This document shows positions 3,098 through 51,190 of a stretch of DNA of 51,633 bases, piece by piece. The position numbers and the translations under genes are program-made. Below the pieces are notes generated by a model. That model had not been told where the DNA came from. It saw only the letters and a program-made list of their open reading frames with translations, and ran no database searches. The stretch is from IMG/VR virus record IMGVR_UViG_3300030329_004387, positions 1 through 51,633 of that record; one strand, written 5' to 3'. Positions within the stretch are counted from its first letter, which is position 1. Every line of letters starts with the position of its first letter. This stretch comes from a virus (Duplodnaviria; Caudoviricetes).

Positions 3098-3353
3098 AAT
3101 AAGAACTAGAATTTCAGATTTAGATAGTATTGATGATTTAAATATTATAAGAGATATTATTTCAAATCAAAGAAAATATCTAGCTCAGAAAAATGCTTTT
3201 GGTTTAATAAAAGGCGACAAAGTTAGAATAGTAGGTTCTGGTAAAATTGATGAAGGCTTTATAGAGAAAATTAATAGAACTAGAGCTGTAGTTATGGTAG
3301 GAGATGTAGGTTGGAATGTTCCTTTTGAAATGATAAGGAAAGTTAATGAATGA
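3078..3353 (+). CDS. Hypothetical protein with KOW/SH3-like C-terminal barrel
   Basis: AGGAGG SD before ATG 3078; LIKGDKVRIVGSG...GFIEKINRTRAVV. Confidence 0.7.
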   Translation: MTKIIDEIRTRISDLDSIDDLNIIRDIISNQRKYLAQKNAFGLIKGDKVRIVGSGKIDEGFIEKINRTRAVVMVGDVGWNVPFEMIRKVNE

Positions 3354-3409
3354 GGAATATTGGTTAGATAAAGTAGATGTATGGATAGAAAATCAAATTA
3401 AAGGAGATT

Positions 3410-4036
3410 ATGATGACGGAAGAAAATCAAAAATCAGTGGAAAAATCGTCAGAACCCGCAATTGGGTCACAAGAATGGGTAAAAGATTGGATGCACAGAA
3501 GAAAAGTGCACAGAATGAGCAAAGCACAGTCACTAAAAGACTTAGCAGCATATCTAAAAGATCTCGGATATAAATATATAAGAGTATGGTATGAAGGAGC
3601 TGGTGATAGTGGTGAATGTTTTGAAGCAGAAGGTTGGAAAAAAGAAATAAATCTTGAAAAGAAAGATCATAGAGGTTGTTGGCCCGATGTATATGAATCT
3701 AAACCTTGGAATCATAATAAAGAAGAAGATTTTGATGAATGGAAAGGTATGACTAGAAATCAAAAAGATCTAGAAGAATCTTATGAACTATTTAGAAAGA
3801 ATCATCCAGATCAAAATCTTCAATCTGAATTACATTATGAACTTGTAGAACTTGTAGATTATGATTGGTATAACAATGAAGGTGGACAAGGTGAAGTAGT
3901 ATGGGATCTAGAGAAAGAAGAATTCCGTGTAGATGGACAACAAAATAGATATGCAGCTGTAGATGTAAAAGAAACATACTTTATGGATGGTAAAAATCCT
4001 GAAGTTTGGCATGGTGATGAGGTTTATGAAAGATGA
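3410..4036 (+). CDS. DUF6878-like protein
   Basis: Motifs YEGAGDSG and DWYNNEGGQG; AAGGAG SD. Confidence 0.7.
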   Translation: MMTEENQKSVEKSSEPAIGSQEWVKDWMHRRKVHRMSKAQSLKDLAAYLKDLGYKYIRVWYEGAGDSGECFEAEGWKKEINLEKKDHRGCWPDVYESKPWNHNKEEDFDEWKGMTRNQKDLEESYELFRKNHPDQNLQSELHYELVELVDYDWYNNEGGQGEVVWDLEKEEFRVDGQQNRYAAVDVKETYFMDGKNPEVWHGDEVYER

Positions 4037-5896: not shown

Positions 5897-6193
5897 ATGA
5901 CAGTAAGAGAACATATTACAAGAGAGTTAGAAAACTTAGAAAACTCACCAATAAATACATTCAGAACATCAGATATACAAGAATTATCATTTGAAGGAAA
6001 GATGGAATTTGGTAAGTATTTAGGCAGTCCTGGAACATATACTAGAGAGTTTAGAAGAATGAGAACTGATGGTATATTAGTAGTAGATAAACTTAATAGA
6101 AAAGAAAGACAACAAGTTTGGAGACTGATAAATGTTGGAAAAATAGAAGATCATTTAGATGATCATATTGATTATTCAGATTTACCATTTTAA
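5897..6193 (+). CDS. Hypothetical protein, possible winged helix, acidic DLPF tail
   Basis: AAGGAG SD; SPGTYTREFRRMR helix; C-terminal DYSDLPF. Confidence 0.7.
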   Translation: MTVREHITRELENLENSPINTFRTSDIQELSFEGKMEFGKYLGSPGTYTREFRRMRTDGILVVDKLNRKERQQVWRLINVGKIEDHLDDHIDYSDLPF

Positions 6194-6202: not shown

Positions 6203-7936
6203 ATGATTAAAGAGTATGCATTTGGATTAGCTAATAGGCATCATTTTGGAGATGTAAGTGATGTTGAGAAATACGCAGGTATGGCTCAAGATACATTTAT
6301 GTCTTTATGGGATTATGATGCTCATGTAGTTGATTATGTTAAAGAAAAAGGCGGTTTATCTGGATATGATGGTATGTTATATATGCCAGATGAATTTATC
6401 TTAGATGTTGATGGAACTAATCCTAAACAAGCTAAAGATAAAACTATAGCATTGACTATAGAATTAGATGATTTATGTATACCTTTTCGTATATATTTCT
6501 CAGGAACAGGATTTCATTTAGGAATACCAGGCGATGCTTTCAGATGGAAGCCATGTCCAGACTTACATTTAAAAGTCAAGGATGAATTAAAAGCTAGAGG
6601 TATTTATGAATGGGCGGATCCATCAGTTTCTGATAAAACTAGAATCATCAGAGTTGTAAATACATTAAATAGTAAATCTAAATTATGGAAAATACCTATA
6701 AGTTTAGAAGAATTGCATAAACCAATAGAAGATATACAAGAGCTAGCTAAAACGAAAAGAGCAATTAATAAATGGACTACATTGGAATGTGAACCTATAT
6801 TTGATGTGTTGGAAAGAAAAAGTAAAGCAAGTGATAAAAAGTTTGAATCAATATCATTAGGAAAGAATCCTGATCCTGTGTGGTATCCATGTATTCAAAA
6901 AATGATGGAAGGCACAGCTCAAGGTTCAAGGCATCAAATAGCATTGCGTATTGGTGCGTTTCTAAGATGGAGATATCCAGAACATGTTGTAAGACTTGTA
7001 ATGGAAGATTGGCGACAAAGAGTAGATATTGCTTCACATCCTTTTAGTAAAGCTGAAATGGATAAAATAGTTACTGATTGTTATGAAGGCCATAATGGTA
7101 ATGGTTATAATTATGGATGTAGTGATATTCATATGGATAAACATTGTCAATCAACTTGCAGATTGTATAAATCAAAAGTATCACAAAACACTATGGATGC
7201 AAAAACTATGGAAAAAGAATTAGTTAACTTTTTAACTAGAAATCATAATCCAATAGATATAGGAGCTCCATGGGGACAAAAATTTCCTGTATATCCAGGT
7301 GAAGTAGTTATATTACAAGCTCCACCTAAATCTATGAAAACAATGTTGTTACAGAATTTAGTTAATAGATTCAAACGTAATACATATTTCATGGAAATGG
7401 AAATGAGTCCAAGGCAAATGTGGATGCGATTTGTTATGATAGAAAATAAATGGTCCGAAGAAGAACTAAAAGACTATTATAGCAAATATGCAAATGGAAT
7501 TAGTAAGGATTTTGATTGGTTGACAGTGGACTATAGTAGTTGTTATCCACAAGAGTTGAGTAAAAGAATTCTAATGTTACCAAGAAAACCTGAAATAGTA
7601 GTTGTAGATCATATGGGATTATTTAAATCCCAAAAGCATGATAATAATATGAAAGTAGAGGAAGTTTCACAATCATTAATGGAACTTGCTGTTCAGAATA
7701 ATATTATAGTGTTTGCTGTATCAGAAATAACTAAATCAGCTTTTACAGAGGGTATGAATATAGCTTCATCTAAAGGTTCATTTAGAGTTGCATATAATGC
7801 TAATAAAGTATTATCACTAACACCATTTAAAGATGATAACAATTTAATTAAAATGTTAAAGTTAGAATGTACAGCTAATAGAGAAAAAGAAAACCTTGAC
7901 CTGCAATTACCAGTAAATAATTCAGTGATAGGATAA
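6203..7936 (+). CDS. AEP primase-polymerase / Cys-rich PriL-like domain / RecA-fold (DnaB-like) helicase fusion
   Basis: AEP motifs ILDVD, FSGTGFH, DKTRIIR; Cys cluster PCI...GC...HC...C; Walker A-like APPKSMKT; Walker B IVVVDH. Confidence 0.85.
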   Translation: MIKEYAFGLANRHHFGDVSDVEKYAGMAQDTFMSLWDYDAHVVDYVKEKGGLSGYDGMLYMPDEFILDVDGTNPKQAKDKTIALTIELDDLCIPFRIYFSGTGFHLGIPGDAFRWKPCPDLHLKVKDELKARGIYEWADPSVSDKTRIIRVVNTLNSKSKLWKIPISLEELHKPIEDIQELAKTKRAINKWTTLECEPIFDVLERKSKASDKKFESISLGKNPDPVWYPCIQKMMEGTAQGSRHQIALRIGAFLRWRYPEHVVRLVMEDWRQRVDIASHPFSKAEMDKIVTDCYEGHNGNGYNYGCSDIHMDKHCQSTCRLYKSKVSQNTMDAKTMEKELVNFLTRNHNPIDIGAPWGQKFPVYPGEVVILQAPPKSMKTMLLQNLVNRFKRNTYFMEMEMSPRQMWMRFVMIENKWSEEELKDYYSKYANGISKDFDWLTVDYSSCYPQELSKRILMLPRKPEIVVVDHMGLFKSQKHDNNMKVEEVSQSLMELAVQNNIIVFAVSEITKSAFTEGMNIASSKGSFRVAYNANKVLSLTPFKDDNNLIKMLKLECTANREKENLDLQLPVNNSVIG

Positions 7937-7941
7937 ACAGT

Positions 7942-8004
7942 TGAAAGAGATGTAAGTCCCGAATGTCCTAGCTATATGCTGAATGACCTAGGCATTCTCT
8001 TTCA
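7942..8004 (+). promoter_or_regulatory. Intergenic stem-loop with internal direct repeat
   Basis: TGAAAGAGA 7942-7950 pairs with TCTCTTTCA 7996-8004; GAATG(T/A)CCTAG at 7961 and 7981. Confidence 0.5.
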
Positions 8005-8021
8005 TACAAATAGGAGAGAAT

Positions 8022-8834
8022 ATGAATCCATATCAAGAAATAAGAAAAGTACCATTAGATTATAGTGGTATACAATCATCAGCTTATTCCGTTCAAAGAT
8101 TAGATGAAGAAAAAGGATGGAAAGAAGCGGGAGTGGTAGGAGCACATTATATGTTATTACCAAACCAAGAAGTAAAAGATATTGCAAGTGATATAGTTGA
8201 GTCAGCTTATATAGATTTTGAATTAGACAAAGAGTTCTTTAATGGTAAGAATTTTATGTTATCGTATAAAGCTGTAGATAGTATAGCAACTGTTGATCAT
8301 ACTGCAAAAGATGAAGATATAGATAAGTTAAATCTAGGTATTCAATTTTGGAATAGTTATGACGGTTCAAGATCATTTGGATTTTCATTAATGCTGTATA
8401 GATTAATATGTACTAATGGAATGATGAGTAAGCAATATCTACAGAACAATAGATTTAGACATGCTCCTGGTTCTGAAGATTGGAATACACAGTTAGAATC
8501 TATGGTGCATCTTATAAATGCTACTCAAGATGGAGATAATAATAGTGTAAATACTATGATTAATGGTATTAAAGAGCTAAATGATTATAGAGTTACATCA
8601 AAGAATTTAGGCAATATTAGGCACAATTTCCTTAAAGATATACCAACAGGTGTATGGGGTGAAATAACTGATAAATTCCTAGATCCTAATGGCGAATACT
8701 ACTCAGATACTAATGGTTGGGGATTACTTAATTCTGCTACAGATATATTGTGGCATAAGAAGAAACCAACACTTGCATCATATAATCAAAATGCTGTTAT
8801 AACAGATGGTTTAATTAACGCAATATGTGCTTAA
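8022..8834 (+). CDS. DUF932/DUF945-family protein
   Basis: NSYDGS...YRLICTNGM motif; W.L.N..T near the C-terminus. Confidence 0.85.
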   Translation: MNPYQEIRKVPLDYSGIQSSAYSVQRLDEEKGWKEAGVVGAHYMLLPNQEVKDIASDIVESAYIDFELDKEFFNGKNFMLSYKAVDSIATVDHTAKDEDIDKLNLGIQFWNSYDGSRSFGFSLMLYRLICTNGMMSKQYLQNNRFRHAPGSEDWNTQLESMVHLINATQDGDNNSVNTMINGIKELNDYRVTSKNLGNIRHNFLKDIPTGVWGEITDKFLDPNGEYYSDTNGWGLLNSATDILWHKKKPTLASYNQNAVITDGLINAICA

Positions 8835-8857
8835 TTAGAAGCGGATGATACGTCGGA

Positions 8858-9014
8858 AAATTAAGAGAGCCAATAACTGGTCCTGTAAGAATGTGGACTC
8901 ATTCATCGCGTTGAATGTAGGGTTCGAATCCCTTGTCTTACATCTTGTATGGGTTTTATCCCTACTAACACATCTAGCGGACAAGAAAAGGAATATGTGA
9001 GGCTCTCTTAATTT
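8858..9014 (+). ncRNA. Structured RNA containing a tRNA-like domain
   Basis: Perfect 14-bp closing stem 8858-8871/9001-9014; acceptor-like stem 8884-8890/8936-8942; T-arm AGGG-TTCGAAT-CCCT 8919-8933. Confidence 0.7.
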
Positions 9015-9042
9015 AATAAATAATAATATTAGGAGAATAAAA

Positions 9043-9132
9043 ATGGCTAAATTACCTAAAGAACTAAAGATATTTCGAAAAATAGTTAGAAAAGTAAACA
9101 GATTGATTTGGGGAAAGAAAAAGAGAAAATGA
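9043..9132 (+). CDS. Basic microprotein (29 aa), not in ORF track
   Basis: AGGAG SD; MAKLPKELKIFRKIVRKVNRLIWGKKKRK; ATGA overlap with the next gene. Confidence 0.6.
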   Translation: MAKLPKELKIFRKIVRKVNRLIWGKKKRK

Positions 9133-9221
9133 AAATTGGAATTTGTATGAATTGTAAGCACCCTATGGCATTTGGAGAATGTAATAATAAATGTCCTAAT
9201 TGCAATTTTGACTATGGTTGA
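9129..9221 (+). CDS. Cys-rich zinc-finger microprotein; TGA at 9219 may be recoded (extends to 9350)
   Basis: MKIGICMNCKHPMAFGECNNKCPNCNFDYG then TGA; frame stays open to TAG 9348-9350. Confidence 0.7.
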   Translation: MKIGICMNCKHPMAFGECNNKCPNCNFDYG

Positions 9222-9261
9222 GAAATAGAAGTATCTCGTGAAGATATAAAGGAGAGAAAAA

Positions 9262-9618
9262 ATGACAAGAAAAAAGATGGGAACATTGATAAAAAAGATA
9301 TTCCTGAAAATTCAAGAAACAAGAGAGTCTGGGCAGAAAGAATACGCTAGAGATATAGATAATGCTTTTGCTAATTTTGAAAGAATTGGTAAAAATTTAA
9401 ATATAACTAGAGAAAAAGTATTGCTAGTATATCTGTTAAAACATATTGACGGTATTTGTTCATATGTTGAAGGACATGAAAGTCAGAGAGAAGATGTAAG
9501 AGGAAGATTAACTGATGCTATAGTATATCTTTGTTTATTATGGGGGATGTGTGATGAACCTATATATCCTGGAAAGTCTAAACATTACTATAGAAGGTTA
9601 AAAAATGAGATTAACTGA
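9262..9618 (+). CDS. All-alpha nucleotide-modification-associated / NTP pyrophosphatase-like protein (Nmad1/DUF1599-like)
   Basis: GQKEYA...FANFE...LLKH...E...GRLTDAIVYLCLL pattern. Confidence 0.6.
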   Translation: MTRKKMGTLIKKIFLKIQETRESGQKEYARDIDNAFANFERIGKNLNITREKVLLVYLLKHIDGICSYVEGHESQREDVRGRLTDAIVYLCLLWGMCDEPIYPGKSKHYYRRLKNEIN

Positions 9619-9766
9619 ATATTTTCATTTTATAACAAGAACAGACATAGGAATAGCTCATAATCCTAAAGAAAATGAATATACACATTTTACACCTTGG
9701 ACAATACATAAAAGGGAAAGATACCTTTATCAATGTATGTTACGAGGTAAAACACCTGTTAAATAA
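9605..9766 (+). CDS. Hypothetical protein (53 aa), not in ORF track
   Basis: ATG overlapping the upstream gene end; fills the operon gap. Confidence 0.55.
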   Translation: MRLTEYFHFITRTDIGIAHNPKENEYTHFTPWTIHKRERYLYQCMLRGKTPVK

Positions 9767-9777
9767 AAGGAGGCAAT

Positions 9778-9927
9778 ATGCCAACAAAAAAGAAAGTTGA
9801 GAAAAAAGAACCAGAAGTAAAGGCAATTCATATAAATGAAATATGGAATGTCATTGAAGAAATGCAGAAAAATATAAATCATATTAATGATAAAATATCA
9901 AGAATATCAAGTAGACTAGGAATATAA
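9778..9927 (+). CDS. Hypothetical coiled-coil protein (49 aa), not in ORF track
   Basis: AGGAGG SD; MPTKKKVEKKEPEV...RLGI. Confidence 0.7.
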   Translation: MPTKKKVEKKEPEVKAIHINEIWNVIEEMQKNINHINDKISRISSRLGI

Positions 9928-9936
9928 GGAGAAATC

Positions 9937-10221
9937 ATGGGAAAGAAAAAACCAACAATGAATGAAATGAAAAATGTAGTAACTAATTTAATAATGCATG
10001 TTAATACTATTGATAAGCATTTACAAAAAATGGATACTGCTGTTTTCAACTATATTAAATTCAAAGGTGATGAAGAAGGATATATAGAGTATATGACTAA
10101 AATAACAAAGGAGAAATCAGATGAAATTTCAGGAAAGAGCAATAAAGGAAATAGAAGAACTAAAAATGAAGCTAAAGATACAAGAAATGAAGTTTCAAAA
10201 GACGACTCAGGAGTTAAATGA
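9937..10221 (+). CDS. Hypothetical protein
   Basis: TAAGGAG SD. Confidence 0.7.
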   Translation: MGKKKPTMNEMKNVVTNLIMHVNTIDKHLQKMDTAVFNYIKFKGDEEGYIEYMTKITKEKSDEISGKSNKGNRRTKNEAKDTRNEVSKDDSGVK

Positions 10222-10387
10222 TTATATAGCAGCTTTAGAATCTGAAAAGATAGTTAGAACTAAATCAAATAATGTAAATAAAATATTATCTGAAGCAGAT
10301 GAAGCATTGAAAAGATATAACATGAAATTAAAAAAAGAAGGAGAAAAATATGCCAAGCAAAAACAAAGCAAGAGGAAACAGACTTGA
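10121..10387 (+). CDS. Hypothetical coiled-coil protein
   Basis: AAGGAG SD; heptad pattern. Confidence 0.65.
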   Translation: MKFQERAIKEIEELKMKLKIQEMKFQKTTQELNDYIAALESEKIVRTKSNNVNKILSEADEALKRYNMKLKKEGEKYAKQKQSKRKQT

Positions 10388-10706
10388 AAGATTAGTAGTT
10401 AATCAGGCTAAAGAAGCAGGTCTAAGTGCTATTAGAGCATATGCTAGTAATGGCATGTCTTTAGGTGAAGCTGAAGATGTAGATGTTAAAATAGATCAAT
10501 ATAAAGGTCAATGTAAGATGCGTAAAAAGATTGCGTCCTTTATGAAACCTCCTGAAAGTTGTGATATAGCTCTAATTAAAGAAGATAGAGAAGATACTTT
10601 AGTTGTTATAAGATATCCTGATTTTCTAAAAATGTTAATTGATTTAAATGGATATAGTAATATGGCTTCAGATCTTGAAGAGCAACTAAGGGAGGCGCAA
10701 GAATGA
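10350..10706 (+). CDS. Holliday junction resolvase (PD-(D/E)XK, Hjc-like)
   Basis: SKNKARGNRLER...DV.I...QCK motif. Confidence 0.8.
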   Translation: MPSKNKARGNRLERLVVNQAKEAGLSAIRAYASNGMSLGEAEDVDVKIDQYKGQCKMRKKIASFMKPPESCDIALIKEDREDTLVVIRYPDFLKMLIDLNGYSNMASDLEEQLREAQE

Positions 10707-10879
10707 ACTATTATGAAAAAGAAAAAAGAGCAATGCAAAAAAGCATGTTAAAGTTGTCTCACTTTCTTTTGTCAGCTATTAATGTGGTTGATAAAACGAA
10801 TTTTCAGGAAACTTTACATCTAATCGATAAACAAACGCAGAATATACGAAGAAAATTTACAAACTATTATAATAAATAA
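10703..10879 (+). CDS. Hypothetical protein (58 aa), not in ORF track
   Basis: GGAGG SD; ATGA overlap. Confidence 0.6.
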   Translation: MNYYEKEKRAMQKSMLKLSHFLLSAINVVDKTNFQETLHLIDKQTQNIRRKFTNYYNK

Positions 10880-10883
10880 ATAT

Positions 10884-10916
10884 AGGGGGTGTCCGTTGCT
10901 CCTGGATGCCCCTTTA
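10884..10916. terminator. Terminator hairpin between convergent arms
   Basis: GGGGTGTCCG/TGGATGCCCC stem flanked by A/T runs at the strand switch. Confidence 0.75.
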
Positions 10917-10917
10917 T

Positions 10918-13900
10918 TTAAAAATTAGCTAAACTTAATAAAGCTCTATCTCTAGTTCTTCTACCTCTTCCTCTATCTCTTCCTCTTCTTCTTCTTCTTC
11001 TTTTTGATCTAGGATCTTCTACTTTTGTCTCAGGTAATATATTTATACCTTCAGCAATACCTGGTGATTCTTCATCTCCATATATAAGACCCATTCCTTT
11101 ATCTACTGTAGCTTTTCTCCAATTAGTAATCCATTTAGGCTTATACATACCAGTTTCAATTCTAAAGGCTTTATCACTTTGCCCTTTAGCTATTGCAGGA
11201 ATAGTTTTCCAAGCAGTTCTAGCTCCTTGTATATTAAATATTCTTGCTACTTGATACCACCATTGCGGATCATCGGGATCATAATTTAAATTTCTATGTT
11301 CTTCATATTCTTCACCAGTCAAATCCATAAAATCAGTTAATTCAGCAATAGTTAATAAATCGCTGACAAAAGGTCCTAAATTACCTGTTATAGGGTTTTT
11401 TCCATAATAAGCTGAATAATGCTTAATTTGAGCTTTTTCATCTCCATCATGATTCCAATTATTTACATAATCAAGTAATTTTTTAGCTTCTTCTATTATC
11501 GGATTATCTATTAAACCACTAGGTGAACTTCTATCAGCTAAAGACATAGTCCCATCTTTTAAATATTTATCTTCATCAAATGGAGTATAGCCAAATGCAG
11601 ATGCCATTCCACCTATATCATAATCACTTACTAAAGCTACTAATGCAGGCATCAATGAATATAAAGACATTAATCTCATGCCTTGTTGAATTGCAGGATT
11701 AATAATCATCTTTTTACCTTTTTGATTTAAGGCTCTATTTCCCATTGCTAATGGATCTTCAACAGTAAATTTAAAACCTTTTACATCTCTAGCCATATCT
11801 CTTAATATATTGTATTGTAAATCAAAAAATGCAAATTTAAAATGTTGGAATTGTCCAATAACTTGACCTGCTCCCATTCCAGTGCCTCTTTGAAGTACCT
11901 TAGCTTTCGCCCAGTTATCATAATCAAAGTGAAGAGTTTTAACCATTTCAAATGCTTGATTACCTGATATTTTTTCTATATAATCCCAAAGCTGTTCCAC
12001 TGTAGGCTCTTTGCCATTTCTTTCAAAAAGTTGTTTTCTATGAAATTCTAATCTATTAGATTCTGCTGTAAATGAATGAGCAAATTGCATTTTAAATGTT
12101 TTAAGTCTATTTGCATTTTCAGCCCATTGTTGAGAACCAACTTTGCCTAGAATAGTATATTTAGAACTCCAATCAGCTCCTTTAGCCATACCTTCAGCTA
12201 TTTTCTTCAAGGTATTACCTTTTTCTAAAACAAGTTTACCTTGTCCATCTACTCCAAATCCTGGTGGAATTAACATAACATCTAATGAGCCTCCTGTAGC
12301 AGCAGAAATACTTGCTCCTTCAGCTTTTTCTCCAATCATCATACCAAATCTTTTTAATTGCCTATTATACATCATTGAATTTGTTATTTCTGCACCTTCA
12401 TACATACGAGAAGTAGTAGTATAAAATTCTTCAGTAATTCTATAACCTCTTTTACCGAACATAACCCAATTTAACAAACCTTGTGTTCTATTTTTTATAC
12501 CACTTTTAAAACTAAAACCTAATTTTGAAATGTATTCAAATGAATTAATTATTCTAACAGCGTGATCTAAATTACCTGTTGGAGCACCATTATTCATTAA
12601 TGCACTATCTTTGATTTCAGTAAGCATATCTAATAAGTAAGTAGCATGTTCGGCTATTTTAACCTTGCCTTTACCGTGTTCATTTCTTCTTACAGCATCT
12701 ACTAAATGAGCTGCAACAGATGAAAAACTATGATTTATTCTAGATCTCATATTAAATGAAGCAACATCATGTACATATTTATTTAAATAATATATTGGAT
12801 CTAATGCTACCCAAGCATCTGTACTGCCCTTTTGCTTTAATCTATTGCTTATTGCTTCTACTGATAAACTATTTTCTATTTCTCTTTGAATATCTGATGC
12901 CTGTTTTCCTTTATAGCCAGGATTATTTCTATCTTTAGCAAATTGCACTAAATTAGACATCATATCAGTTAATTCTATTACATAATCTGGAGAATACTTA
13001 GTTATTGATTTTTCACCATTTGCTCTAACTCCTATTGCAGTTAAAGGATTTCCATCAGAATCCTTTTCTTGTAATACATAAGGTCTTTTTGTTCGAGTTT
13101 TTGGATCATATATATAAAAATCTTTTGGATTTGCTGCTGTTATAATGCCATTTTCATTTCTATATTGATTGCTAAGAGTACTTTTATCAATATTACTTTG
13201 TATTAAAAGAGACTCTATTTGCTGACTAATTGTTTCATAAGCTTTTATAAGAGTTTTTTTAGTAGGATCTGATTCAAGTAAACCTTCTATTGTTCTTCTT
13301 GCAGCAATAGAGCCATTTAATAAATCTTTCATACTATCCATTCTTAATATATCCCAAGCTTGTCTAACTTTATGCTCTGCTGGAGTTTCTGGTTGAGTTT
13401 TAAATGTAAGCAAATCATTGAATCTTCGCAACATTTGACCACCTACTGGATCTCCTTCACCTCCACTGCCTAAATGATCTTTAAGGGCATTTAAAGCCTT
13501 TAATTGCTCTTTTGAACCTGGCTTAGAAACTAATAATTCTCTTTCTAAATTTTGAAAATATTTATATTGTTCTTTAGAATAAGTTTTACCTGCCGCTATA
13601 TTTAATGGATGTGTTGGGTCTAAAAACATTTCAAACATACCATCAGTCATTTTTTTAATATGTTTTGCACCATCTTTAAGTAGTTTTTGATTATAACTAA
13701 CAGCTTCTCCTACTTGAGTAACAAAATCTTCTCCACCTTTAAATCCTTTTGCTAAAACTTTTGGTAGCTTAAAATAGGTCTCAAAATAGCCAGCTTGTTT
13801 ACCTAGTTTAGGTAGAAATTCCTTTTTTATAGCTTTTGAAAAAATTTCTATATCTTTAGGGTTAAGCCTTATTGTTGCAACATCAAATTCTGTTCTTGTA

Positions 13901-14085: not shown

Positions 14086-17000
14086 TTACCAACATGATCT
14101 ATCAAGCTCTCTAAAATAATCCATTACATCACCTTTACCTGCTTCTGTACCATGATATATCTTACTTCTATAAGTATGAAGAGGCTCAAATATATTTCCT
14201 CCTTTAAATGAATAATCATTTATACTGCCCCACATCTTATTAACTACATTAGTAACAATATGTGCGGGAGGAGCTCCATCTAAACTTGTAACAGTCATAT
14301 CTACAGTCGTTCTATATAATTCAAAAGGATCTAAAAAATAAGACCCCATTAAATAATCTGATGCTATTTTTACAGCATCTTTATTCAAGTTGACATCTGT
14401 CATAAAACTAGGCATTTCTTTCATTGGAGGAAGTAATCTAAAATCACTCATTTCTCTAGTAATTCTTTCAAAAGCAAAAACATCACCTTTTAATGAAGGA
14501 TCATACTCTCTTATAAAAGCCTTTTTAAATCTATCATTTATTGTTTGATACCAATCTTTAGCAGTAGCAGAATCTATTACTCTACTTCCTTGACCATCCA
14601 TAGCTCTTTGTAGAAATTGAAATACTAATGACTCATTTCTTTTATTTGAATTAAATTTAGGAGTTAGACTTGAACTCTTTCTTAAATCATTTCCTACAAT
14701 ATGAAAAACATTCCTATCTGCTCTTGGAGTTAAAAGCATATGGATGAATTGTTGCTGCATTATAGTTCCATAAGGTCCCCCTAAATCTCTAGCCATATCA
14801 ATATAATCCATTAATATTTGCAAATCCTTTTCAGCAGCTAATCCAAATCTTGCCGCATCTTTAGGTCTAGATGGGTCAATTACTTGATTTTCTCTTGCAT
14901 TTAAAGCTTCATTAAATCGTTCTACTAATTCATTCAATCTAAATTCATCTACTTTATCTACTCTTCTATCTAATCTAGCAAAAGCATTATGCATAGCTCT
15001 TCTTACTCTAGCTGTATTATCAAAACCCATTTCCAATCTTTTAGGATTCTTAACTATAACATCTCCCGCTCTCCAAGTAACCTTTTCACCAGGCTTAAAA
15101 AGCATCATTTGTTCTGCTCTTTTTTTATCACCTTTACCTACTAGTCTAAAAATACCTATAGTATCATTTTTGTATACTCTAGGTTTTTTACTATCATATT
15201 TTTCAGGTTTATGCATATGATATATAGTATTAGGGTCATTGACCTGTTTATTGAATTCTAAAATAATTGCATTATATTTATCGCCTTCTGATTTCCAATA
15301 TCTATAAACAGCAGTATCCTCTTTGCCTCTAGATACCAAGTCTTTTAAAACATCATTTACTTGGTCTAATTTATACTTAATAGTAGACACGGTTAATATT
15401 TTAGTTTGATCGTTTAAAATGCCATTAATAGCTTTATTTACATTATCAGGAGTAGCTTTTGTAATTCCTGCTAAAATTTGACCTAAACCATCATCTATAG
15501 AAGGTATACCATTTTTAAATATATTAGAATTTAATTGCTTTCTCAAGCTTGATAACGCTACTATTATAGGAAGTTCAGATCTAGCGGCTGTATTAGATGA
15601 ATTAAAATGATTATCTCCTAAGAAGTGTAATAATGGATCTACAGTACTTCTAAGTTCATTACCTACTAACTTGCCAGAGTCTTTATCCCAGCGATAGCCT
15701 GTCATTTTAATAGTATTTAAAATATTCTCATATCTATTAACCATTTCAAAAGCTGACATTTTTCTTGAAGTTCCATCTGTAAAATGATCCATCATTAAAT
15801 TTAAATTATGCAATTCGCCTAAAGGTTGTATAATACCCTGTCTAATTTTTTTATGTATTAACTGACCTTCAGTAGACATTGCATCAAAAGATACCTTTTT
15901 TCCTACTTTATCTTGTATCCCTTGATATTGCCATATTTCAAGAAAACCTAAATCTTTATTTTCCCATATAAGCTTATCTAATTGTATATCTCTAATATCT
16001 TGAGGTTTTTTATATATATCAATAGTAGCCTTTATTAATCTTTTCATATATTCTAAAGATTGAACTAATTCCATACCATCTTTAAGAGCTATTTTATATC
16101 GAACTCCTTTTATATCATTTACTTGAAAACCTAATTCTGGTCCTATTTGGAATCTATCAGTTCTATTTTTGCCACCTTTTTGCCATCCAGGAAGAAATAT
16201 ATCTCCTTCTCTAACAGAGTAATATTGAAGCATTGTAGATAATACTGAAACTTGTCGAATAAGCGAACCTCTTTTTGCATCTAAAAATTTTATAGTATCT
16301 GTATATTGCCCTTGATTTCTATCTAAACCTACTTCAATTAATGCTCTTTCAAATAAAGCATCTGTAGATTGCTGATATCCAGAAACATTATACATCTCTT
16401 TAATAACCCTGCCAGGCAATGTAAACATACTTGCAGATTTATCTAGATCAAAATCAGCATCTTGAGGATCAATAACATCTAATAAATTCATTTCACTAAC
16501 AGGTCCACGTCTTTTATCTAATAATTTTTCAACTCTTGTAATAACCCAATCGTTTATACCTGCTTTAGGTTGTCTTAAATCAACTTTACCTAAATGTATT
16601 TGAGAATACATATGCTTTTTATCTTTTCGTCCTGATGCTAATAAATTATATGCAGCATCTGGATTATTCTTACCATTTAAATGAGAATCTAATATATATT
16701 CAGTAAATTCATTTTTATATTCACTTCTTGTACCATTTAACATCATAGCCAAGTCACCTACTGTCGTAATACCTTCATCAATTTTAATCCATTCAATTAA
16801 TGATTTCATATCTGCTTCTAAAGCTTTTTCTAATCTATTTATAGCGTTAGCATTTTCTTTTATTGCTATCTTAGTGCTTAAATGTTGTCCAATAACTGTA
16901 AGAGTGCCATCGGGATTTAAGGAGACAGCAAAATCATTTCCTTCAATATCCTTTCCAAGACGTTCTAATTTATTTTCTTTTACAAAATCTTTAGTCACTT

Positions 17001-20000
17001 TAAATATGAAAGTCAAACTTTCATTTTTATTTGGCTGGAAGGCTACAGAGCCTGTACCAGAATCTCTTGTCATCATAAAATGATCAAGAGGAGTAGTCCA
17101 TTCTTTGCCAGACATACCTGAACCACCGAAACTATATTGAACACCTTCATATCTTACAGGCATACTTAAACCACCAGCAGGTTGCATAACAGAATAAGAA
17201 CCATTTTTTACAGCAGATGTTATTAAATTCCTATTTCCCATATACTCTGAAGTAACCATCTTATCTATATTAGGAGCCATAAATTCAAACAAAGGAAGTC
17301 CATCTACTGCTAATACAGCTTCAACTCCTGTAACCTTACCAATTTGGTCACCTGTTTCTTTTTGTCCCATTAATAGCTTGGAAGTAATTTCTTTATATGA
17401 AAAAGGATTACTTTCTGCAGCCATAGCTGCGAATCTTTGAACCATATCTGCTGTAGTATCATGAATTTTTGTTATACTATTTAAATCTTTTAATGATTGA
17501 TTTGAAAGTAAGTTTGCAAAGCCTGCTGACATTGTAGCATCATGTGTGCCACTAATAGATTTGATAAAAATAGATTCTCTATCTACTAAAAAGATGTTAT
17601 CCATTGTTTCTACAGCCATTCCACCTCTAGTTTGGATTTTTCTAGATACAGCGGGTCCCCATGGAGCATTTGTAAAGATTCCAACATCTCTTAAATTTTC
17701 AAAAGTCATCCAATCAGTGCCTCTCATAGGCTTGAATGAACCTATATCTACACCAGGACTTTCGATTAAGCCTGTTTGAGGATTATATCTTCTATGCTCT
17801 TTATGAGAACTTTCAAATCCTATAGCATCTACCATATATTCACCATTTCTATTTTGCATAATTTTGTCCATTACGGGATGCCAAGCATAAGCAGTTTTTC
17901 CTATATGAACCTCTATAGCACCTGTTTCATTATTAATTTTATGATGATATTCAATAGGCTTTATAGCTACATTAAATCCTATAATTTTTTCACCTATAAC
18001 ATCACCTTTATCATTAACTTTATCTCCCCATATAAACCATTCTCTTGTAGCTCCTTTAGCAACTAATTCAGAAATCATTTCAGGCATACTTAAAAACTTT
18101 GATCCATTCATAACAGATGCAGCTAATTTGTCATGATGCTTTAAAATGTTCTCGATAAATTCATTTCTTTCTCTTCTAGACATATTAGGATTATTTCTTT
18201 TTAATTGCTCTTTTAAAACTTCTCTGCTAATATTTGAACTATTAAAAAAGCCTTTTGAATCTCCCTTCTCATCAAAAAACTGCAAATCTCTACGTGGTTT
18301 AGTTTTTCCTTGAGAATCAAACATATGATTAGCAAATATATCATAGGCTTCCCACATCTTGCTATTTTTATCTAAAAATCTCGGTAAATACTCTCTTGTA
18401 AAATGTAAAGCTCTATCTGATAATGATAAGCCGCTTCTAGAATTATCTAATTTAATATACTTTAAAGCTTGCAACTGTTCAACAATAGTTGATTCCCCTT
18501 TAGCTACTTTCATTAAATCAAATCCTTTTGCATGCATTAATCTAGCAATTTGAACAAGATTGATTGCTTCAGAGTTCTTTAAATCAAGGGGAGTCATAAC
18601 TCCTTGTTTATTAAATTCTGCATTTGGAACATGTTTTTTGATATAATCTTGCACCATAAGGTTTAAATCATAATCTGATTTTTTAGGATTGTGACTTCTA
18701 AATAAAGCTACTAAATCTTTTCTTAGTTTTGATTGTGGATCTCTAAAATTCTCTAAAATTCTAGGTTTAACAATAGTTGGCATTAAAATAGATGTTTTCT
18801 CATCTAATTGAATAAACATAAATTGAGTAGAACCATCTTTACCTACACTTGTTTTTTGTAAATTTTGATATAAGTCAATTAATTCAGCATCTCCAGTTTT
18901 CAATAATTCTTTAGAATTTATATCTACAAAAGCACCATCTGCTAATTTTTGTTCTAATTCCAAACGAGCTTCAGGAGTCATTTTAGAAGTAAATCCTTTA
19001 CCAGTACCATATCTTCCACCTAATAATATCATAGTACCCATATCGGTATTTAATCCTAATGTTTCGGCTAATAAATTCAAACCCCTATTCCAATTAGATG
19101 TAGTAGTATTGTCGATTGTTAATCTTCCGTTTTCATAAATACCTATAGGCATTTTTTTCGATGCCAAGGCTGCTTGTACAACATGATAAGTATCTAAAAC
19201 AAAATCTTCATATGTACCAGGAAGTTTTTTATCTTTAATTTGAGATTTTAATATAGTATCAATTTTTACTTTTTGAGCTTTAATTATAGGCTCTATTACA
19301 ACATCTACATAATCTTTAACAGTAAAGGTGCCATCTATTACTTTTTGAAGTCCTTTTTCTATAACTGCATATTCTCTAGTGCCTATAGGAGGATTTTTAA
19401 TCCCAAAACTATCTAAAATTTTTCTAGGATTATAAATAAGATTGTCAATAAAATCAGTTGTTAAATTCCATTTTGTTTCATACTGCTGTTTACTTATACT
19501 AGTATTTCCTGAGTGAGGCCTATTGCTTCTATCAACTAAAGATAAACTATTTACTTGATTTTGTATATAATTATCTACATCTAGAATACTATCTATTCTT
19601 AAAGTTTCATTTCTTTCAGACATGGCTTCTATAACATACTCTTGCATTTGTTTTCGCCAATTTTTAATTGATTCAGGAGTTATTCCTTTATTTGTAAACA
19701 TTAAATTTGTTAATTCACTAAGCTTTTGAGAGCTATCTATAAAAGAACGTAAACCTATATGATCTCTATTTTGTACTAATAAAGTAAAAATTTGGTCTAA
19801 GTTAGCAGCATCTCTTGCAAGTTTAACCATTTCATTTTCCAAAGTTTCATTTATAACTTTACCTTCATTGATAGCTGCTTCGTTCTGTTTATCAACTAAT
19901 GCTCTTATTTCTGCAACAGATACACCTAATTCTTGAGCTTTTCCATGCAAATCAATTAAATCAACATGAGCAATTCTATCAGCTCTATTAATCATTTCAG

Positions 20001-23000
20001 AAACTTCTTGAATAAAATCATTACGCATTAGAGGATCTATATTTACATCTAATTTTGCATCTACGAAATTTATAGCATTACCTTTCTTATTTAAAGCACT
20101 CCTTAATGGATTTTCTACTTTAGATTCATATTCATTAATCAGATTTTCTAATCTAGTATATTCAGAAGAGTTTTTAATAATGCTAGGATCAGACAATAAA
20201 GTATCTCTTAAAGCTTGAGCAGACCTAAGATTTAAAGCTCCATCTCTTTTGATGGCTACTAAACTATCTTTATGTAATGCCATGATAACAATCTGCTTTA
20301 ATGATGTTGATATATTAGGATTGCCTGTTAATTCTCTAACAAATCTTTGACTAACAAATTGTAAAAATGAATTAAATTCTTGAGGATTTGTTAAAACATT
20401 CCCTATATTTTTTGTTATTTCATCTTTTATAGCCGTTAATTCTCCTACATCTATTTCTTTTCTAGATACTTTCCCAGAACTATCTAAATTCAATAATTCT
20501 AATGTTCTATTTAATTGATTATAAAAAGCATTTAAATCTTTATCTTTTCCAGATAAATCAATTTCTTTTAATGATCCATCAGTAAGTTTTTCTATAATTC
20601 TAAATGATACATTTCCACCTAATTTATTCTTTAAAAATGAAAACAATAATTTAGCTTCTCTAGTACCACCTTCTGCACCTGTAAAACTAAAATAAGCCTG
20701 TTCATTTCTTCTATATCTATGAGCGCTTTGAATTGAATGCCATAAAGGCACTGCTGCTAGCATTTGGGGATCTAAAAATCCATCCTTATTATTCCAAGTA
20801 GGTATTTTTTGTCTCCAATTAGCTTCTTTCCCAGGACCTGAATTATAAATCATTTCATGTATATTTTCAGTATTTTTATTATATAAATCTAAAAATTCAG
20901 CTCTATTTCCTTCTGCAAGTATATCTTTCCCGCTATATTTTCTTCCATTAGTGCTATATTCGATAACTCCTGTATTTTTACCAGCATGCAACATACCTAT
21001 AAGCGTTTGAGCTGCATCATAATACGGCTTAGCTCCAGCATCTACATGTGTTTTTAGAGTGTGTAAAGCATCTCCTACACTTTCATGAATTACAAGTCTT
21101 CCATTTACTATTGAAGCATCATCAGCTAATCCTAATGTTTTTAATGATTTCCATATATGATCAACTAACATTTTTTCAGCTTCAGCTGCAATTTTTATTG
21201 TATTTCCCTGCACTTGATCTTCTAAATGAGAATAAGTATCCATAGTTAATTTTTGACCATTTGGCAATTGAAGATCTTTAAATCCTTGCACAAAAGCTAA
21301 GGCTTCTTCTTTTGTCATATCTGTAATTACTTTACCACTTTGTCCAACCCCAGCTAACTTTGATATTCTTTCAGCTAATAAATTTAATTCAAGTAAATCG
21401 CTAGCCTCTTTCTTTAATTCTGCAGCTTTTTCCGTATTACCAGCTTGATTTTCTTTTTGAATTTCTTTTTGAATTCTATCTATTTCATTTTTAATATGCA
21501 CATTCCAATTATCTAATTCAGGTTTATCTTTTTGTTTATTTGCAACTTGTAAAAAATCAGCTTCTTTAAGTTCTTGATTTTGTTTAGCAGAAATCATTTT
21601 CTCCCTTACTATATCAACAATCATTTTTACATCTACTGATCGATTAATAGCTTCATTATTCAATTTTTCCATTGCTTCAGATACTTCTAAATGAGCATAT
21701 CTATTATATAGCTCTAATCCATCCTTATTTTTTTGCAATTTTTCCATTGCTTTTAAAAACTTAGATATTTCATTACCTTCCATTTGAAAACCTGATTCAG
21801 CGTAAAATCTTTTTGTAGGAGTTCGGCCAAATGCATCAACTTCCTTCATACTTTCTATATCTCTAATCTTATTAACATCTTTAGTTCTATTGAAAATACT
21901 TTCACCTTCTTTTTTGCCTCCTTTAAAAACTACACCATCACCTTTAATTTGAAATCTTCCAAAATTCTTACCACCTTTCATATAAAGCATACCTATCCAA
22001 TGATCGGCTATCACTTTATCCATAGGATATTCATCTGTAAATAAGTATCCATTATCATAAGCATCTTTATATGCAGCATAATTCATAGCAAAAGAACCTG
22101 CAGAAGCACGTGTAAATGAACCTATTCCATCTCTTCTAATCTCTCCCATAATAGTTTTCATTAAACCAGGTGTATCACTTTTTACAACTTTAAGCATATC
22201 CTCTAATATCTTTCTATCCTTAACACTAGTCTTTGTTGTTTGGCTTAGTCCTGCCAACCAAGCTTTAGAATATCCTCTAACGCTTCCAAAAATTTCATCA
22301 GCCGTTTTTCCAGAACTAATAACAATAGAATTCATCATTCCTTTTAATTGTTCATTGCTATATGAAGCTGCAGATTTAAATCTAGTTTTAATTAATTTAG
22401 CAAGAGTTCCTATATCGGCAACCATACCGCTATGTCCAAATTGTACTTGTTTACCACCAGGAATATATCTAATAGGAGCTAATATAGCACCTGTTTTCAT
22501 TCCATGCATAGTTCTTTCATACCAATGCTGATATCCCCACTGATCTTCAGTTAAGCCATACATTTCAGCAGCCATATCTCCAGTCTCTCCTACCACAGTA
22601 TCCCAAACTCCAAGTAAGGCTGCTTCATACACAATATCGCCTATAAGTTGAGATGTTTTGGTATTCAAACCAGTTCTCATACTTATACTGTAAGCCAAAG
22701 AATGTCCAAAATGCTTGTTTAATGATTCAGCAGACTCTTGCATAACAGTATTAACAATTTTAGCTAATTTCTCGCTTCCTGGCTGTAATTTGGTTAATTT
22801 AGAAAGACTTTGAGTTACTTCTTCTGCCACTTGTTTATTAATATTTTGATTAGCTAATGGATTATGCACTAAAGATCTTCTAGCTGAAGCTAGTGGATTT
22901 AATATGCCTAAAGGACCTTTATTCCACCATTTTAAAGACTTAATCTCAGATTTAGTGCCTTTTTTAAGAAGTTCTCTGGTAGTTTTTATAGTCTCTCTTA

Positions 23001-50542: not shown

Positions 50543-50572
50543 CTAATACTCCAAATCCCGTCAGGGTTTTGG

Positions 50573-50776
50573 TTATGTTATTCCAAGAGTATTGCCTTCC
50601 AAATCACTCAACATATCAGCCAATTCCTCAGGAACAACTAAATCTTCACCATCAATATTTAAAGTAGCATTACCTTCATTCTCCATGTATTCAGATAGAT
50701 GTAATACTTCTTTACTAGCTTTATCAATTACGATCTTTAACTTATAAATATGTATATCTGGTTTCTTATCAGCCAT
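50573..50776 (-). CDS. Hypothetical protein, first gene of the late operon
   Basis: AGGAGG SD. Confidence 0.7.
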   Translation of the reverse strand: MADKKPDIHIYKLKIVIDKASKEVLHLSEYMENEGNATLNIDGEDLVVPEELADMLSDLEGNTLGIT

Positions 50777-50789
50777 AGTGCCTCCTGGA

Positions 50790-51021
50790 TATAGTTAGCC
50801 CCTGTAAAAGACTAAGTCTAATTTTAAAATATTAACTTTAAATTTCCCCAGAGCCAGTTATTCTCTCCCATACTCAAGTTTATATTAAAGCAGTTTTTAT
50901 CGGTTATCGGGGACAAACCCTTGATCCTATTTGGAGGGCAACCCAACTTCTGACCCAATATAGCAGAACGATTCGCACGTGTACTAACTGGGTGATAGCT
51001 AAAAAATCATAACTACCGATA
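50790..51021 (-). ncRNA. Structured 5-prime leader RNA of the late operon
   Basis: Multibranch domain closed by 51015-51021/50898-50904 at the predicted start site; a second domain carries the GAGTATGGGA..AATAACTGGCTC motif. Confidence 0.55.
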
Positions 51022-51025
51022 TTGA

Positions 51026-51055
51026 AATATAACTAAGGATAAAGAATAAAAACAA
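51026..51055 (-). promoter_or_regulatory. Sigma70-like late-operon promoter
   Basis: TTGTTT-N18-TATATT; predicted +1 near 51019-51020. Confidence 0.5.
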
Positions 51056-51076
51056 GAGGTTTTAAAAATTGTAGCA

Positions 51077-51190
51077 TTTTGGTGTGTGCTCTTTTATGAA
51101 ATGGTGTACCCCTTAACAGGGTTTTTGGTTATCACTTTTTAGTTGTTTTTGGTTTGAGATTTTTTGGTTTATGATGTTATTTTTTAGAGT
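51077..51190. repeat. T-tract repeats TTTTT(G/A)GTT
   Basis: Copies at 51122, 51136, 51146, 51161; partial copies at 51077 and 51181. Confidence 0.6.

What the first reader, a model, noticed from the sequence alone, without database searches (positions are those of the whole stretch)
8872..9000. Same internal-loop motif in two RNAs, circularly permuted
Here AATAACTGG-TCCT (8872-8884) faces AGGA-ATATGTGA (8989-9000), with the molecule opened on the far side. In the late leader (minus strand, 50875 to 50851) the two strands occur in the opposite order, joined by 3 nt: GAGT-ATGGGA-GAG-AATAACTG-GCTC. The core TATG(T/G)GA / AATAACTGG is kept while the flanking stem changes compensatorily (AGGA/TCCT versus GAGT/GCTC). 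Inference: a protein-binding or catalytic RNA module. The early RNA could titrate a factor acting on the late-operon leader, or both could be antitermination elements. I know no described family for it.
Basis: partly seen in the sequence, partly recalled or inferred. Interest (0 to 1): 0.8.

Follow-up and report, generated by a model that had tools for sequence, protein, structure and literature searches.

The report
Shared permuted motif in two phage RNAs
Two conserved structured RNAs of an uncultured marine phage, one between early genes and one leading the late operon, carry the same short irregular-helix motif wired in opposite strand order, and neither RNA belongs to any catalogued RNA family.

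Summary
Every stated coordinate is correct. Both halves of the motif lie in RNA elements that are conserved with covarying helices.

- **Early RNA (8857-9014, +).** It belongs to a widespread marine-phage intergenic RNA family, with 70 further distinct copies found. The family has a covarying helix P1, an almost invariant internal loop (AA[U/C]AACUGG facing [A/U]UAUGUGA), a helix P2 and a hypervariable distal "cargo".
- **Late leader (about 50788-51020, -).** It is a multi-helix RNA in which 25 of 37 predicted pairs show compensatory changes. One hairpin is capped by UAUGGGA-N3-AAUAACUGG.
- **What is shared.** UAUG(G/U)G and ACUGG sit next to a helix in the same polarity, with strand connectivity swapped. 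I estimate chance at no more than about 0.005.
- **Catalogues.** Rfam 15 has no match for either RNA.

- The two RNAs occur independently: of 30 genomes, 8 have both, 14 only the early RNA, 4 only the late hairpin and 4 neither.
- Downstream genes are diverse.
- No window protein tracks the motif.

My best reading, at about 0.4, is an autonomous module that docks a host factor. A new self-cleaving ribozyme is not excluded. Function is untested.

The parts
8857..8871 (+). Early RNA, P1 5' strand
   Evidence: Pairs with 9001-9014. In the family alignment, 10 of 12 P1 pairs show changes on both sides. The 100% paired figure for P1 is partly by construction, because I set the outer P1 limits by extending paired positions.
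8872..8880 (+). Module, 5' loop strand AAUAACUGG
   Evidence: Nearly invariant in 52 family members chosen by the other half.
8881..8884 (+). P2 5' strand UCCU
   Evidence: Pairs with 8989-8992. Invariant in alignment A2. Replaced by a different 6-bp helix in L017:468-523.
8885..8988 (+). Hypervariable distal 'cargo'. In this window it includes a T-loop-like hairpin at 8919-8933.
   Evidence: Family interiors run from a 4-nt loop (L108) to more than 150 nt. In DNA run X1, contigs sharing the flanks carry at least 9 different interiors between about 8889 and 8987.
8989..8992 (+). P2 3' strand AGGA
8993..9000 (+). Module, 3' loop strand AUAUGUGA
   Evidence: 52-53 of 53 at each position, but this half was the search pattern for that set. 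It is also kept in copies found through the 5' half.
9001..9014 (+). P1 3' strand
51026..51058 (-). Conserved promoter-like block (CTCTTG ... TATATT) upstream of the late leader
   Evidence: Conserved columns 1-33 of alignment A1. The consensus promoter scan did not call it, so its role as a promoter is inference.
50788..51020 (-). Late-operon leader RNA: multi-helix 5' domain, hairpin domain, a variable hairpin, then CAGGGG before the ribosome-binding site
   Evidence: 25 sequences aligned. Of 37 predicted pairs, 25 show compensatory changes.
50827..50896 (-). Late hairpin domain: Pa, UAUAA, stem S, module, S', GAAAU, Pa'
   Evidence: In 22 sequences, 97% of cells are paired, 11 of 12 pairs are compensatory and 0 of 500 shuffles do as well. 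Model R2 scores the window at 85.7 bits.
50854..50872 (-). Module in permuted order: UAUGGGA-GAG-AAUAACUGG, capping stem S (50873-50875 with 50851-50853)
50968..50980 (-). Small hairpin of the late leader. Its loop reads GCGA/GCAA/GAAA/GAGA across relatives and its 3-bp stem covaries (ACG/CGU, ACU/AGU, ACC/GGU).
   Evidence: Read by eye from alignment A1. No formal pair count was made.
50573..50776 (-). First gene of the late operon (67 aa), followed by terS, endolysin and terL

Best explanation
Both sites are real RNA elements that share one compact structural module. Next to a Watson-Crick helix, the strands UAUG(G/U)G(A) and (A)A(U/C)(A/N)ACUGG face each other.

The module probably forms an irregular helix. 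Read outward from the adjoining helix, the layers would be U.G, A.G, N.U, G-C, (G/U).A, G.N and A-U. This pairing scheme is inferred, not shown. The far end can be an open helix (P1 in the early RNA) or a 3-5 nt cap or small inserted hairpin (late leader). That is why the two copies look circularly permuted.

My commitment is that the module is an autonomous docking site for a factor that every host cell supplies. Candidates are a host protein such as an endoribonuclease, RNA polymerase or another RNA-binding protein. On this view it is not one half of a phage-specific early/late circuit.

The early-family RNA would then be a portable, horizontally spreading unit: P1, module, P2 and variable cargo. 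It is either embedded in early polycistronic mRNA or, in a few phages, looks like a stand-alone small RNA. The late leader uses the same module as one domain of a larger regulatory or structural 5' UTR.

Shown: conservation, covariation, permuted topology, intergenic sense orientation and independent occurrence. Inferred: the pairing scheme, the existence of a binding partner and any effect on processing, stability or termination.
For: - Early family: 70 distinct copies plus the window. In 39 aligned copies, 93.6% of cells are paired, 15 of 21 pairs are compensatory and 0 of 500 shuffles do as well.
- Minimal members keep only P1, the loop and a 3-6 bp P2 hairpin (L108; L017:468-523). So the module, not the cargo, is the constant part.
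- Late hairpin: 11 of 12 pairs are compensatory. Divergent leaders put a small hairpin or a 26-nt insert between UAUGGG and (G)UACUGG (L335, L336 and L099). This gives the same two-helix topology as the early RNA.
- The third base of UAUGGGA is U, A or G but never C in 22 leaders. That fits a position opposite the U of CUGG.
- All 70 early copies are intergenic, and 63 of 66 upstream ORFs lie on the same strand.
- Downstream genes are diverse: primase-helicase, DUF932, a family I judged radical-SAM-like by eye, small ORFs, or none. That argues against a gene-specific regulator.
- The two RNAs occur independently.
- No window protein tracks the module. Genome G014 shares 1 of 54 window ORFs yet holds the RNA at 80.7 bits. 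This points to a host factor or an RNA-only activity, and to horizontal spread.
- Some copies have a promoter-like block upstream and P1 followed by a U-run (L131, L213).
Against: - No binding partner has been identified and no experiment exists.
- The host is unknown.
- Variation differs between the two contexts. The early strand varies at U/C of AA[U/C]AACUGG and keeps the next A. The late strand keeps the U and varies the next base (A/U/G). The two modules may therefore not be functionally identical.
- The early strand has U where the late strand has G (UAUGUGA against UAUGGGA), consistently.
- The permuted, late-type form was found only inside the late-leader family.
- Loci were collected with exact patterns, so invariance of the pattern half is partly by construction.
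- Only contigs, not raw reads, were available from RNA libraries, so transcription and RNA ends are not shown.
Confidence: 0.4

Rival explanations
1. The module is the core of a new small self-cleaving ribozyme. An internal loop sits between two helices, either of which may be open or closed.
For: - The profile resembles that of known small ribozymes. That comparison is from recall.
- The tiny core is nearly invariant, the helices covary and an optional stem is hypervariable.
- Connectivity is circularly permuted.
- Distribution is sporadic and independent, with several copies in some contigs (L154, L200, L204, L133, L161 and L017).
- No phage protein partner emerged.
Against: - Known natural ribozymes need more tertiary architecture than one internal loop, and minimal members have only P1, the loop and P2. 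This point is from recall.
- No Rfam ribozyme model matches even at E up to 10.
- No read-end evidence is available.
- The prior for a new ribozyme class is low.
Confidence: 0.12
2. A phage-encoded factor binds both RNAs, and the early RNA titrates it away from the late leader or both act as its antitermination sites.
For: - The same module sits in an early transcript and in the late leader of one genome.
- A 29-aa ORF rich in Lys/Arg follows the early RNA (9043-9132). A homologue follows the RNA in L154 and L191.
- By logic this resembles the putL/putR RNAs of phage HK022, which share sequence and lie in two operons (PMC9378689, passages read).
Against: - Four genomes have the late hairpin without the early RNA, and 14 have the early RNA without the late hairpin.
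- No window ORF is shared by all module-bearing genomes apart from core proteins that module-less genomes also have.
- The basic ORF follows the RNA in only 3 of 71 copies, and tblastn found it in none of the 29 genomes (such a short query is hard to detect).
- Early copies lie mid-operon or late in the operon and can be multiple.
Confidence: 0.08
3. The resemblance is coincidental. The two conserved RNAs have unrelated loops that happen to share ACUGG and UAUGNG.
For: - The two contexts differ in which positions vary.
- G against U at the fifth base of the 7-mer is fixed in each family.
- The two RNAs do not co-occur.
Against: - At least 10 of 11 helix-adjacent bases match in the same polarity. 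The estimate is 1.4e-5 per comparison and at most 0.0055 for 400 comparisons.
- In this window the full 9-mer is identical.
- Divergent late leaders adopt the two-helix topology of the early RNA.
Confidence: 0.15
4. The module is an RNA-only stabilising or insulating element with no specific partner. For example, a rigid irregular helix could protect mRNA ends or block Rho or exonucleases.
For: - Position is intergenic and independent of the neighbouring gene.
- P1 is followed by a strong U-run in 6 to 8 of 69 copies (6 with at least 7 T in 9, 8 with at least 6).
- Relatives carry other, unrelated hairpin elements in the same slot.
Against: Simple stability does not need about 17 invariant unpaired-looking bases kept across phages whose TerL is only 28-40% identical.
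Confidence: 0.15
5. The early element acts as a single-stranded DNA hairpin on the lagging-strand template, for example as a priming or origin signal for the nearby gp4-like primase-helicase.
For: - It sits in the replication module next to SSB, primase-helicase and DUF932 genes.
- The invariant UGGUC matches a T7-type primase recognition word (recalled, not tested).
- Always lying on the sense strand also fits the lagging-strand template.
Against: - The late copy lies in a 5' UTR between a promoter-like block and a ribosome-binding site.
- G.U pairs are frequent in P1.
- L017:468-523 lacks GUC.
- Contigs from RNA libraries cover the element, which is weak evidence.
- Genome G014 has the RNA but no detectable homologue of the window primase-helicase.
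Confidence: 0.05

Closest known systems
HK022 putL/putR antiterminator RNAs
   Same: Cis-encoded structured RNAs with shared sequence sit in two operons of one phage. They act without a phage protein and contain functionally important non-canonical pairs (PMC9378689, abstract and passages read).
   Different: put is about 70 nt with two stem-loops in a V shape and a triplex. Here there is a single irregular helix, and a minimal member is 51 nt with one hairpin. Early copies lie far from the promoter and can be multiple. No antitermination was tested.
Circularly permuted small self-cleaving ribozymes (hammerhead types I-III, twister P1/P3/P5, hairpin)
   Same: Small invariant core, covarying helices that may be open or closed, optional variable stems, and scattered copies in phage-like DNA. 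This comparison is from recall.
   Different: No Rfam ribozyme model matches. There is only one internal loop, and cleavage is untested. The likeness of AAUAACUGGUCCUGU to hairpin-ribozyme loop B and its substrate is recalled only.
RNase III processing hairpins of T7-like phages
   Same: Intergenic hairpins with an internal loop occur in both early and late transcripts, just after a stop codon and before the next ribosome-binding site. This comparison is from recall.
   Different: Loop sequence is conserved far more strongly across unrelated phages. In the late leader the module sits directly under the cap, which is a poor geometry for RNase III. Not tested.
Y RNA / 6S / CsrB-type RNAs (conserved protein-binding stem plus variable loops)
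   Same: A conserved basal stem with an irregular region, plus a variable distal part. The window's cargo holds a T-loop-like hairpin.
   Different: No Rfam match. No partner protein is known. The RNA is mostly embedded in mRNA.
Candidate structured RNAs of IMG/VR viruses (Fremin, Bhatt and Kyrpides 2023, PMC10690425)
   Same: Same data source, and the same kind of object: covarying intergenic viral RNAs.
   Different: The main text (outline and passages read) describes neither RNA nor a permuted shared motif. The list of 10,006 candidates is in supplements I could not open, so either family may already be listed there.

Membership tests
Any Rfam 15 family | Covariance-model score at or above the family's gathering score | tested here: not met
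   0 matches on the window and only a tRNA on 6 family loci. At E up to 10 there is only noise on 8700-9150 and 50700-51250 (best 16.9 bits against a threshold of 68) and nothing on L150.
tRNA / tmRNA | Cloverleaf or tmRNA fold detected by ARAGORN | tested here: not met
   0 genes in the window. Only the 13-15 nt T-loop-like piece at 8919-8933 matches fragments of the models.
Hairpin, hammerhead and twister-type ribozymes | Family covariance model and catalytic core | tested here: not met
   No ribozyme family was listed even at E up to 10. Self-cleavage itself cannot be tested here.
Kink-turn | 3-nt bulge followed by tandem G.A / A.G pairs next to the C helix | tested here: not met
   The 3' strand ends GA next to P1. 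The opposing strand reads AAU-AA, so it has no G at position 1b. The late form has no C helix at all. The consensus is recalled.
11-nt GAAA tetraloop receptor | CCUAAG facing UAUGG in register | tested here: not met
   UAUGG and UAA are present. The partner strand reads AAUAAC-UGG and is offset by 3-4 nt from the helix, and there is no CC to pair with GG. The consensus is recalled.
HK022 put RNA | About 70 nt, two stem-loops, placed downstream of an early promoter, binds the RNA polymerase beta-prime zinc-binding domain | tested here: not met
   The architecture differs: a single helix, with a minimal member of 51 nt. Activity on RNA polymerase cannot be tested here.
Intrinsic terminator | G+C-rich hairpin followed directly by a U-tract | tested here: not met
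   No terminator-like site in 7800-11000 or 50400-51633. At least 6 T in the 9 bases after the P1 core occurs in 8 of 69 copies.
Gene-specific cis-regulator (riboswitch-like) | Consistent downstream gene class and an expression platform | tested here: not met
   For the early family, downstream genes are diverse or absent and the spacing is variable. For the late leader the gene context is consistent (upstream of the late operon), but no ligand or switch was identified, so that case is inconclusive.

The most novel reading that the evidence does not exclude
The UAUG(G/U)GA / AAUAACUGG irregular helix is the active core of a previously unknown, permutable small ribozyme. Equally novel, it could be a new sequence-defined RNA recognition module. 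Either way, it spreads horizontally among unrelated marine phages as a portable cassette with exchangeable cargo hairpins and has been built into a large late-operon leader RNA.
Probability: 0.12. Interest if true: 0.92.

Novelty: new variant of a known kind. Interest (0 to 1): 0.68.

Why it matters
If confirmed, this yields two abundant, uncatalogued RNA families of marine phages and a short, sequence-defined RNA module that works in either strand connectivity.

- The module is only about 17 constant bases between two arbitrary helices, so it is small enough for direct biochemical tests such as cleavage, probing and pull-down.
- Its near-identity across phages that share almost no proteins suggests a portable RNA cassette that uses something universal in the host.
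- That bears on how uncultured marine phages process or control long operon transcripts.
- It could also add a new entry to the small set of recurrent RNA motifs.

Tried and rejected
- **Single-sequence folding of the late leader:** no better than shuffles.
- **DNA search of GenBank phages:** no match for either region or for a canonical family member. One search used wrong coordinates and is void. TerL is at most 26% identical to cultured phages, so no host could be assigned.
- **Prokaryote genome scan with a 19-mer:** 3 stretches, of which only 1 is a real family member, on a contig of a Flavobacteriales metagenome-assembled genome. This is too little to name a host.
- **Sequencing runs:** only contigs were served. 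Contigs from RNA libraries cover 8719-8867, 8866-9001, 8964-9115 and 9333-9504. They cannot show transcription, strand or RNA ends, and parts without cover mean nothing.
- **Loose gapped pattern for the early type:** swamped by chance, with 3 of 108 distinct matches having P1 of at least 5 bp.
- **Descriptor scan for late-type modules elsewhere:** 37 hits against 4-11 in shuffles, and all the excess belongs to the leader family.
- **GNRA/UNCG tetraloops in predicted cargo hairpins:** not enriched, at 4 and 1 against shuffled means of 3.15 and 0.25. I therefore dropped this as an argument for RNA over DNA.
- **Promoter and terminator scans:** uninformative.
- **Phyletic profile of 54 window ORFs over 29 genomes:** no candidate partner. 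The widely shared 259-aa protein is a metallophosphoesterase that also occurs in two module-less genomes.
- **Literature:** a search by sequence strings found only unrelated primers.
- **Considered and rejected by inspection:** kink-turn, 11-nt receptor, integron attC-like site, short peptide coding in the late loop (a 1-nt length change in L040 breaks the frame), and start-stop AUG-UGA use (absent in the late form).

Full report
**Setting.** The window is a single IMG/VR virus record of 51,633 bases, estimated 91% complete, with 32.7% G+C.
- Genes on the + strand from 1 to about 10.7 kb form an early/replication module: an Erf-like annealing protein, SSB, a 577-aa primase-helicase, a DUF932 protein and a RusA-like resolvase.
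- The minus strand from 50776 down to 10918 carries a small ORF, terS, endolysin, terL, portal, major head protein and tail genes.
- The phage is marine, judging by the DNA holders. It has no close cultured relative: there is no DNA match in GenBank phages and TerL is at most 26% identical.

**The observation.**
- On the + strand a 14-15 bp helix (8857-8871 with 9001-9014) encloses AAUAACUGG (8872-8880), UCCU, about 104 nt of interior, AGGA and AUAUGUGA (8993-9000).
- On the minus strand, GAG-UAUGGGA-GAG-AAUAACUGG-CUC spans 50875-50851.
- Within the window alone this is unremarkable. The 9-mer occurs 3 times against 0.67 expected, with 4 of 100 shuffles reaching 3. The 7-mer class occurs 26 times against 17.9 expected. 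The late region alone folds no better than shuffles.

**The early RNA is a member of a large family.**
- Flanks of the DUF932 gene in 25 related viral loci showed the same element in several relatives. P1 covaried, the two loop strands were invariant and the interior was completely different.
- In an alignment of 39 copies, 93.6% of cells pair, 15 of 21 pairs change on both sides and 0 of 500 shuffles do as well. Ten of 12 P1 pairs covary. The outer limits of P1 were set by pairing in my script, so 100% pairing there is partly by construction.
- P2 (UCCU/AGGA) is invariant in that set. A second copy in L017 (468-523) has AGAUAA/UUAUCU instead. L108 has only UCC-UGUA-GGA. So P2 is a helix without a sequence requirement, and the smallest member is 51 nt.
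- In 53 matches of model R1, from loci selected by the 3' half only, the 5' strand reads A, A, U45/C7, A, A, C, U, G48/A3/C1, G51/A1.
- The interior is hypervariable. In one DNA metagenome (X1), contigs sharing the flanks carry at least 9 different interiors between about 8889 and 8987, and 19 contigs show the commonest joint.
- All 70 copies are intergenic, and 63 of 66 upstream ORFs are on the same strand.
- The copies sit at different intergenic slots of the replication module. Downstream genes are diverse.
- Eight of 69 have at least 6 T in the 9 bases after the P1 core. Two of these (L131, L213) also have a promoter-like block upstream.

**The late leader is also a conserved RNA.**
- Upstream of terS, the closer relatives keep a roughly 270-nt block.
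- Twenty-five sequences align. The block begins with a conserved promoter-like CTCTTG...TATATT. RNAalifold predicts 37 pairs, of which 25 show compensatory changes, including two long-range helices.
- The hairpin domain (50827-50896) has the order Pa, UAUAA, stem S, module, S', GAAAU, Pa'. In 22 sequences it is 97% paired and 11 of 12 pairs are compensatory.
- Model R2 finds it at E of 3.7e-12 or better in the window and 26 of 80 terS loci, and weakly in 3 more.
- More distant terS relatives go from promoter straight to the ribosome-binding site and have no leader.
- A pattern scan found 42 further leader-family copies among 109 distinct matches. The rest look like chance.

**Is it the same module?**
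- The late consensus is S-UA(U/A/G)GGGA-G-N2-3-(A/U/G)(A/U)U(A/U/G)ACUGG-S'.
- Divergent leaders keep only UAUGGG and (N)ACUGG. Between them they place a mini-hairpin (L335, L336) or a 26-nt insert (L099). This reproduces the two-helix topology of the early RNA.
- Shared between families are UAUG.G on the strand leaving the helix and ACUGG on the strand entering it, with an offset of 0-1 nt.
- From window composition, matching at least 10 of these 11 bases has probability 1.4e-5 per comparison, and at most 0.0055 for 400 helix-end comparisons (my own model).
- Differences exist. The fifth base of the 7-mer is U in the early RNA and G in the late. The positions that vary in the 9-mer also differ.
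- I put about 0.8 on a real shared motif.
- A plausible pairing is U.G, A.G, N.U, G-C, (G/U).A, G.N and A-U. The third base of the late 7-mer is U, A or G but never C, as expected opposite U. This scheme is inference.

**What it is not.**
- Rfam 15 has nothing for either RNA. ARAGORN finds no tRNA or tmRNA.
- By inspection it is not a kink-turn and not the 11-nt tetraloop receptor. Both consensus sequences are recalled.
- It is not a terminator in this window.

**How it may work.** The titration circuit is disfavoured.
- Among 29 fetched genomes, 21 have the early RNA and 11 the late hairpin. Seven have both, 14 only the early RNA, 4 only the late hairpin and 4 neither. With the window added, 8 of 30 have both. 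Twenty of the 29 were chosen for holding the early RNA.
- In the sets not chosen by RNA, both single states still occur.
- tblastn of 54 window ORFs over the 29 genomes shows no protein that follows the module. G014 shares 1 of 54 ORFs with the window, yet its RNA scores 80.7 bits.
- The one widely shared accessory protein is a metallophosphoesterase that also occurs in two module-less genomes.
- The module therefore acts on its own or with a host factor, and the early cassette moves horizontally.
- I commit, at about 0.4, to a docking site for a host factor acting on the RNA that carries it.

**Known work.**
- The put RNAs of HK022 are the nearest in logic but differ in architecture (PMC9378689, abstract and passages read).
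- A 2023 catalogue of 10,006 candidate viral RNAs from the same database may list these families.
- A full-text search for the motif strings found only unrelated primers.

**Verdict.** Function is open and cheaply testable.

Noticed in passing
window 50788-51058 (-): The whole late leader is a large multi-helix RNA absent from Rfam. It has a promoter-like block, a 5' domain closed by AUCGGU/ACCGAU and GUUGGG/CCCGAU helices, a small hairpin whose loop varies among GNRA sequences (50968-50980), the module hairpin, a variable hairpin and an invariant CAGGGG. It deserves study in its own right.
   Followed up: partly
window 8919-8933 (+): The cargo of this window's early RNA contains AGGG-UUCGAAU-CCCU, a T-arm-like hairpin. 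It gives only 13-15 nt fragment matches to Rfam models. A contig from an RNA library (X19) is identical over 8866-9001 but differs upstream.
   Followed up: partly
window 9043-9132 (+): A 29-aa ORF with 11 Lys/Arg and a strong ribosome-binding site directly follows the early RNA. Its end overlaps a 37-aa ORF with four cysteines that looks like a zinc ribbon (my reading; no Pfam or PHROG match). Homologous basic ORFs follow the RNA in L154 (second copy) and L191.
   Followed up: partly
L005, L006, L016, L018, L019, L022-L024, L009, L014, L011, L012 (just downstream of the DUF932 gene): Relatives that lack the early-family RNA in this slot carry other long hairpin-like elements there. Some open with a similar GAGAG.../...CUCUC base. 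These may be further intergenic RNA classes.
   Followed up: no
L154, L169, L187, L218, L223 (cargo) and L009 about 3330-3420: One cargo sub-domain, a GAUGAC/GUCAUC hairpin with a 17-18 nt loop, recurs in several early-family members with different P1 helices. It also occurs inside a different intergenic element in L009. This suggests that RNA modules are shuffled.
   Followed up: no
window 34937-35716 (-): A 259-aa metallophosphoesterase (phrog_221) sits among the late structural genes. It is 53-95% identical in 27 of 29 genomes, including genomes that share almost nothing else with the window.
   Followed up: partly
window 8877-8883 (+): The invariant UGGUC equals a T7-type primase recognition word (recalled), and a gp4-like primase-helicase gene lies nearby at 6203-7936. 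By my rough estimate this could well be chance.
   Followed up: no
L330 6173-6265 (-): The only real family member found in 185,579 prokaryote species genomes lies on a 26.7-kb contig of a marine Flavobacteriales metagenome-assembled genome. It may be a phage contig binned with the genome.
   Followed up: no
window 14086-23565 (-): A single 3159-aa ORF lies in the late operon and had no family assignment in my scans.
   Followed up: no
L630 (G020) 5937-6084 (-) and 7892-7965 (+); L603 (G009) 10541-10612 (-), 13700-13833 (+), 17432-17526 (+): In two more distant genomes the early-type RNA and the late hairpin lie within 2-7 kb of each other on opposite strands. This mirrors the divergent early/late layout of the window.
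   Followed up: no
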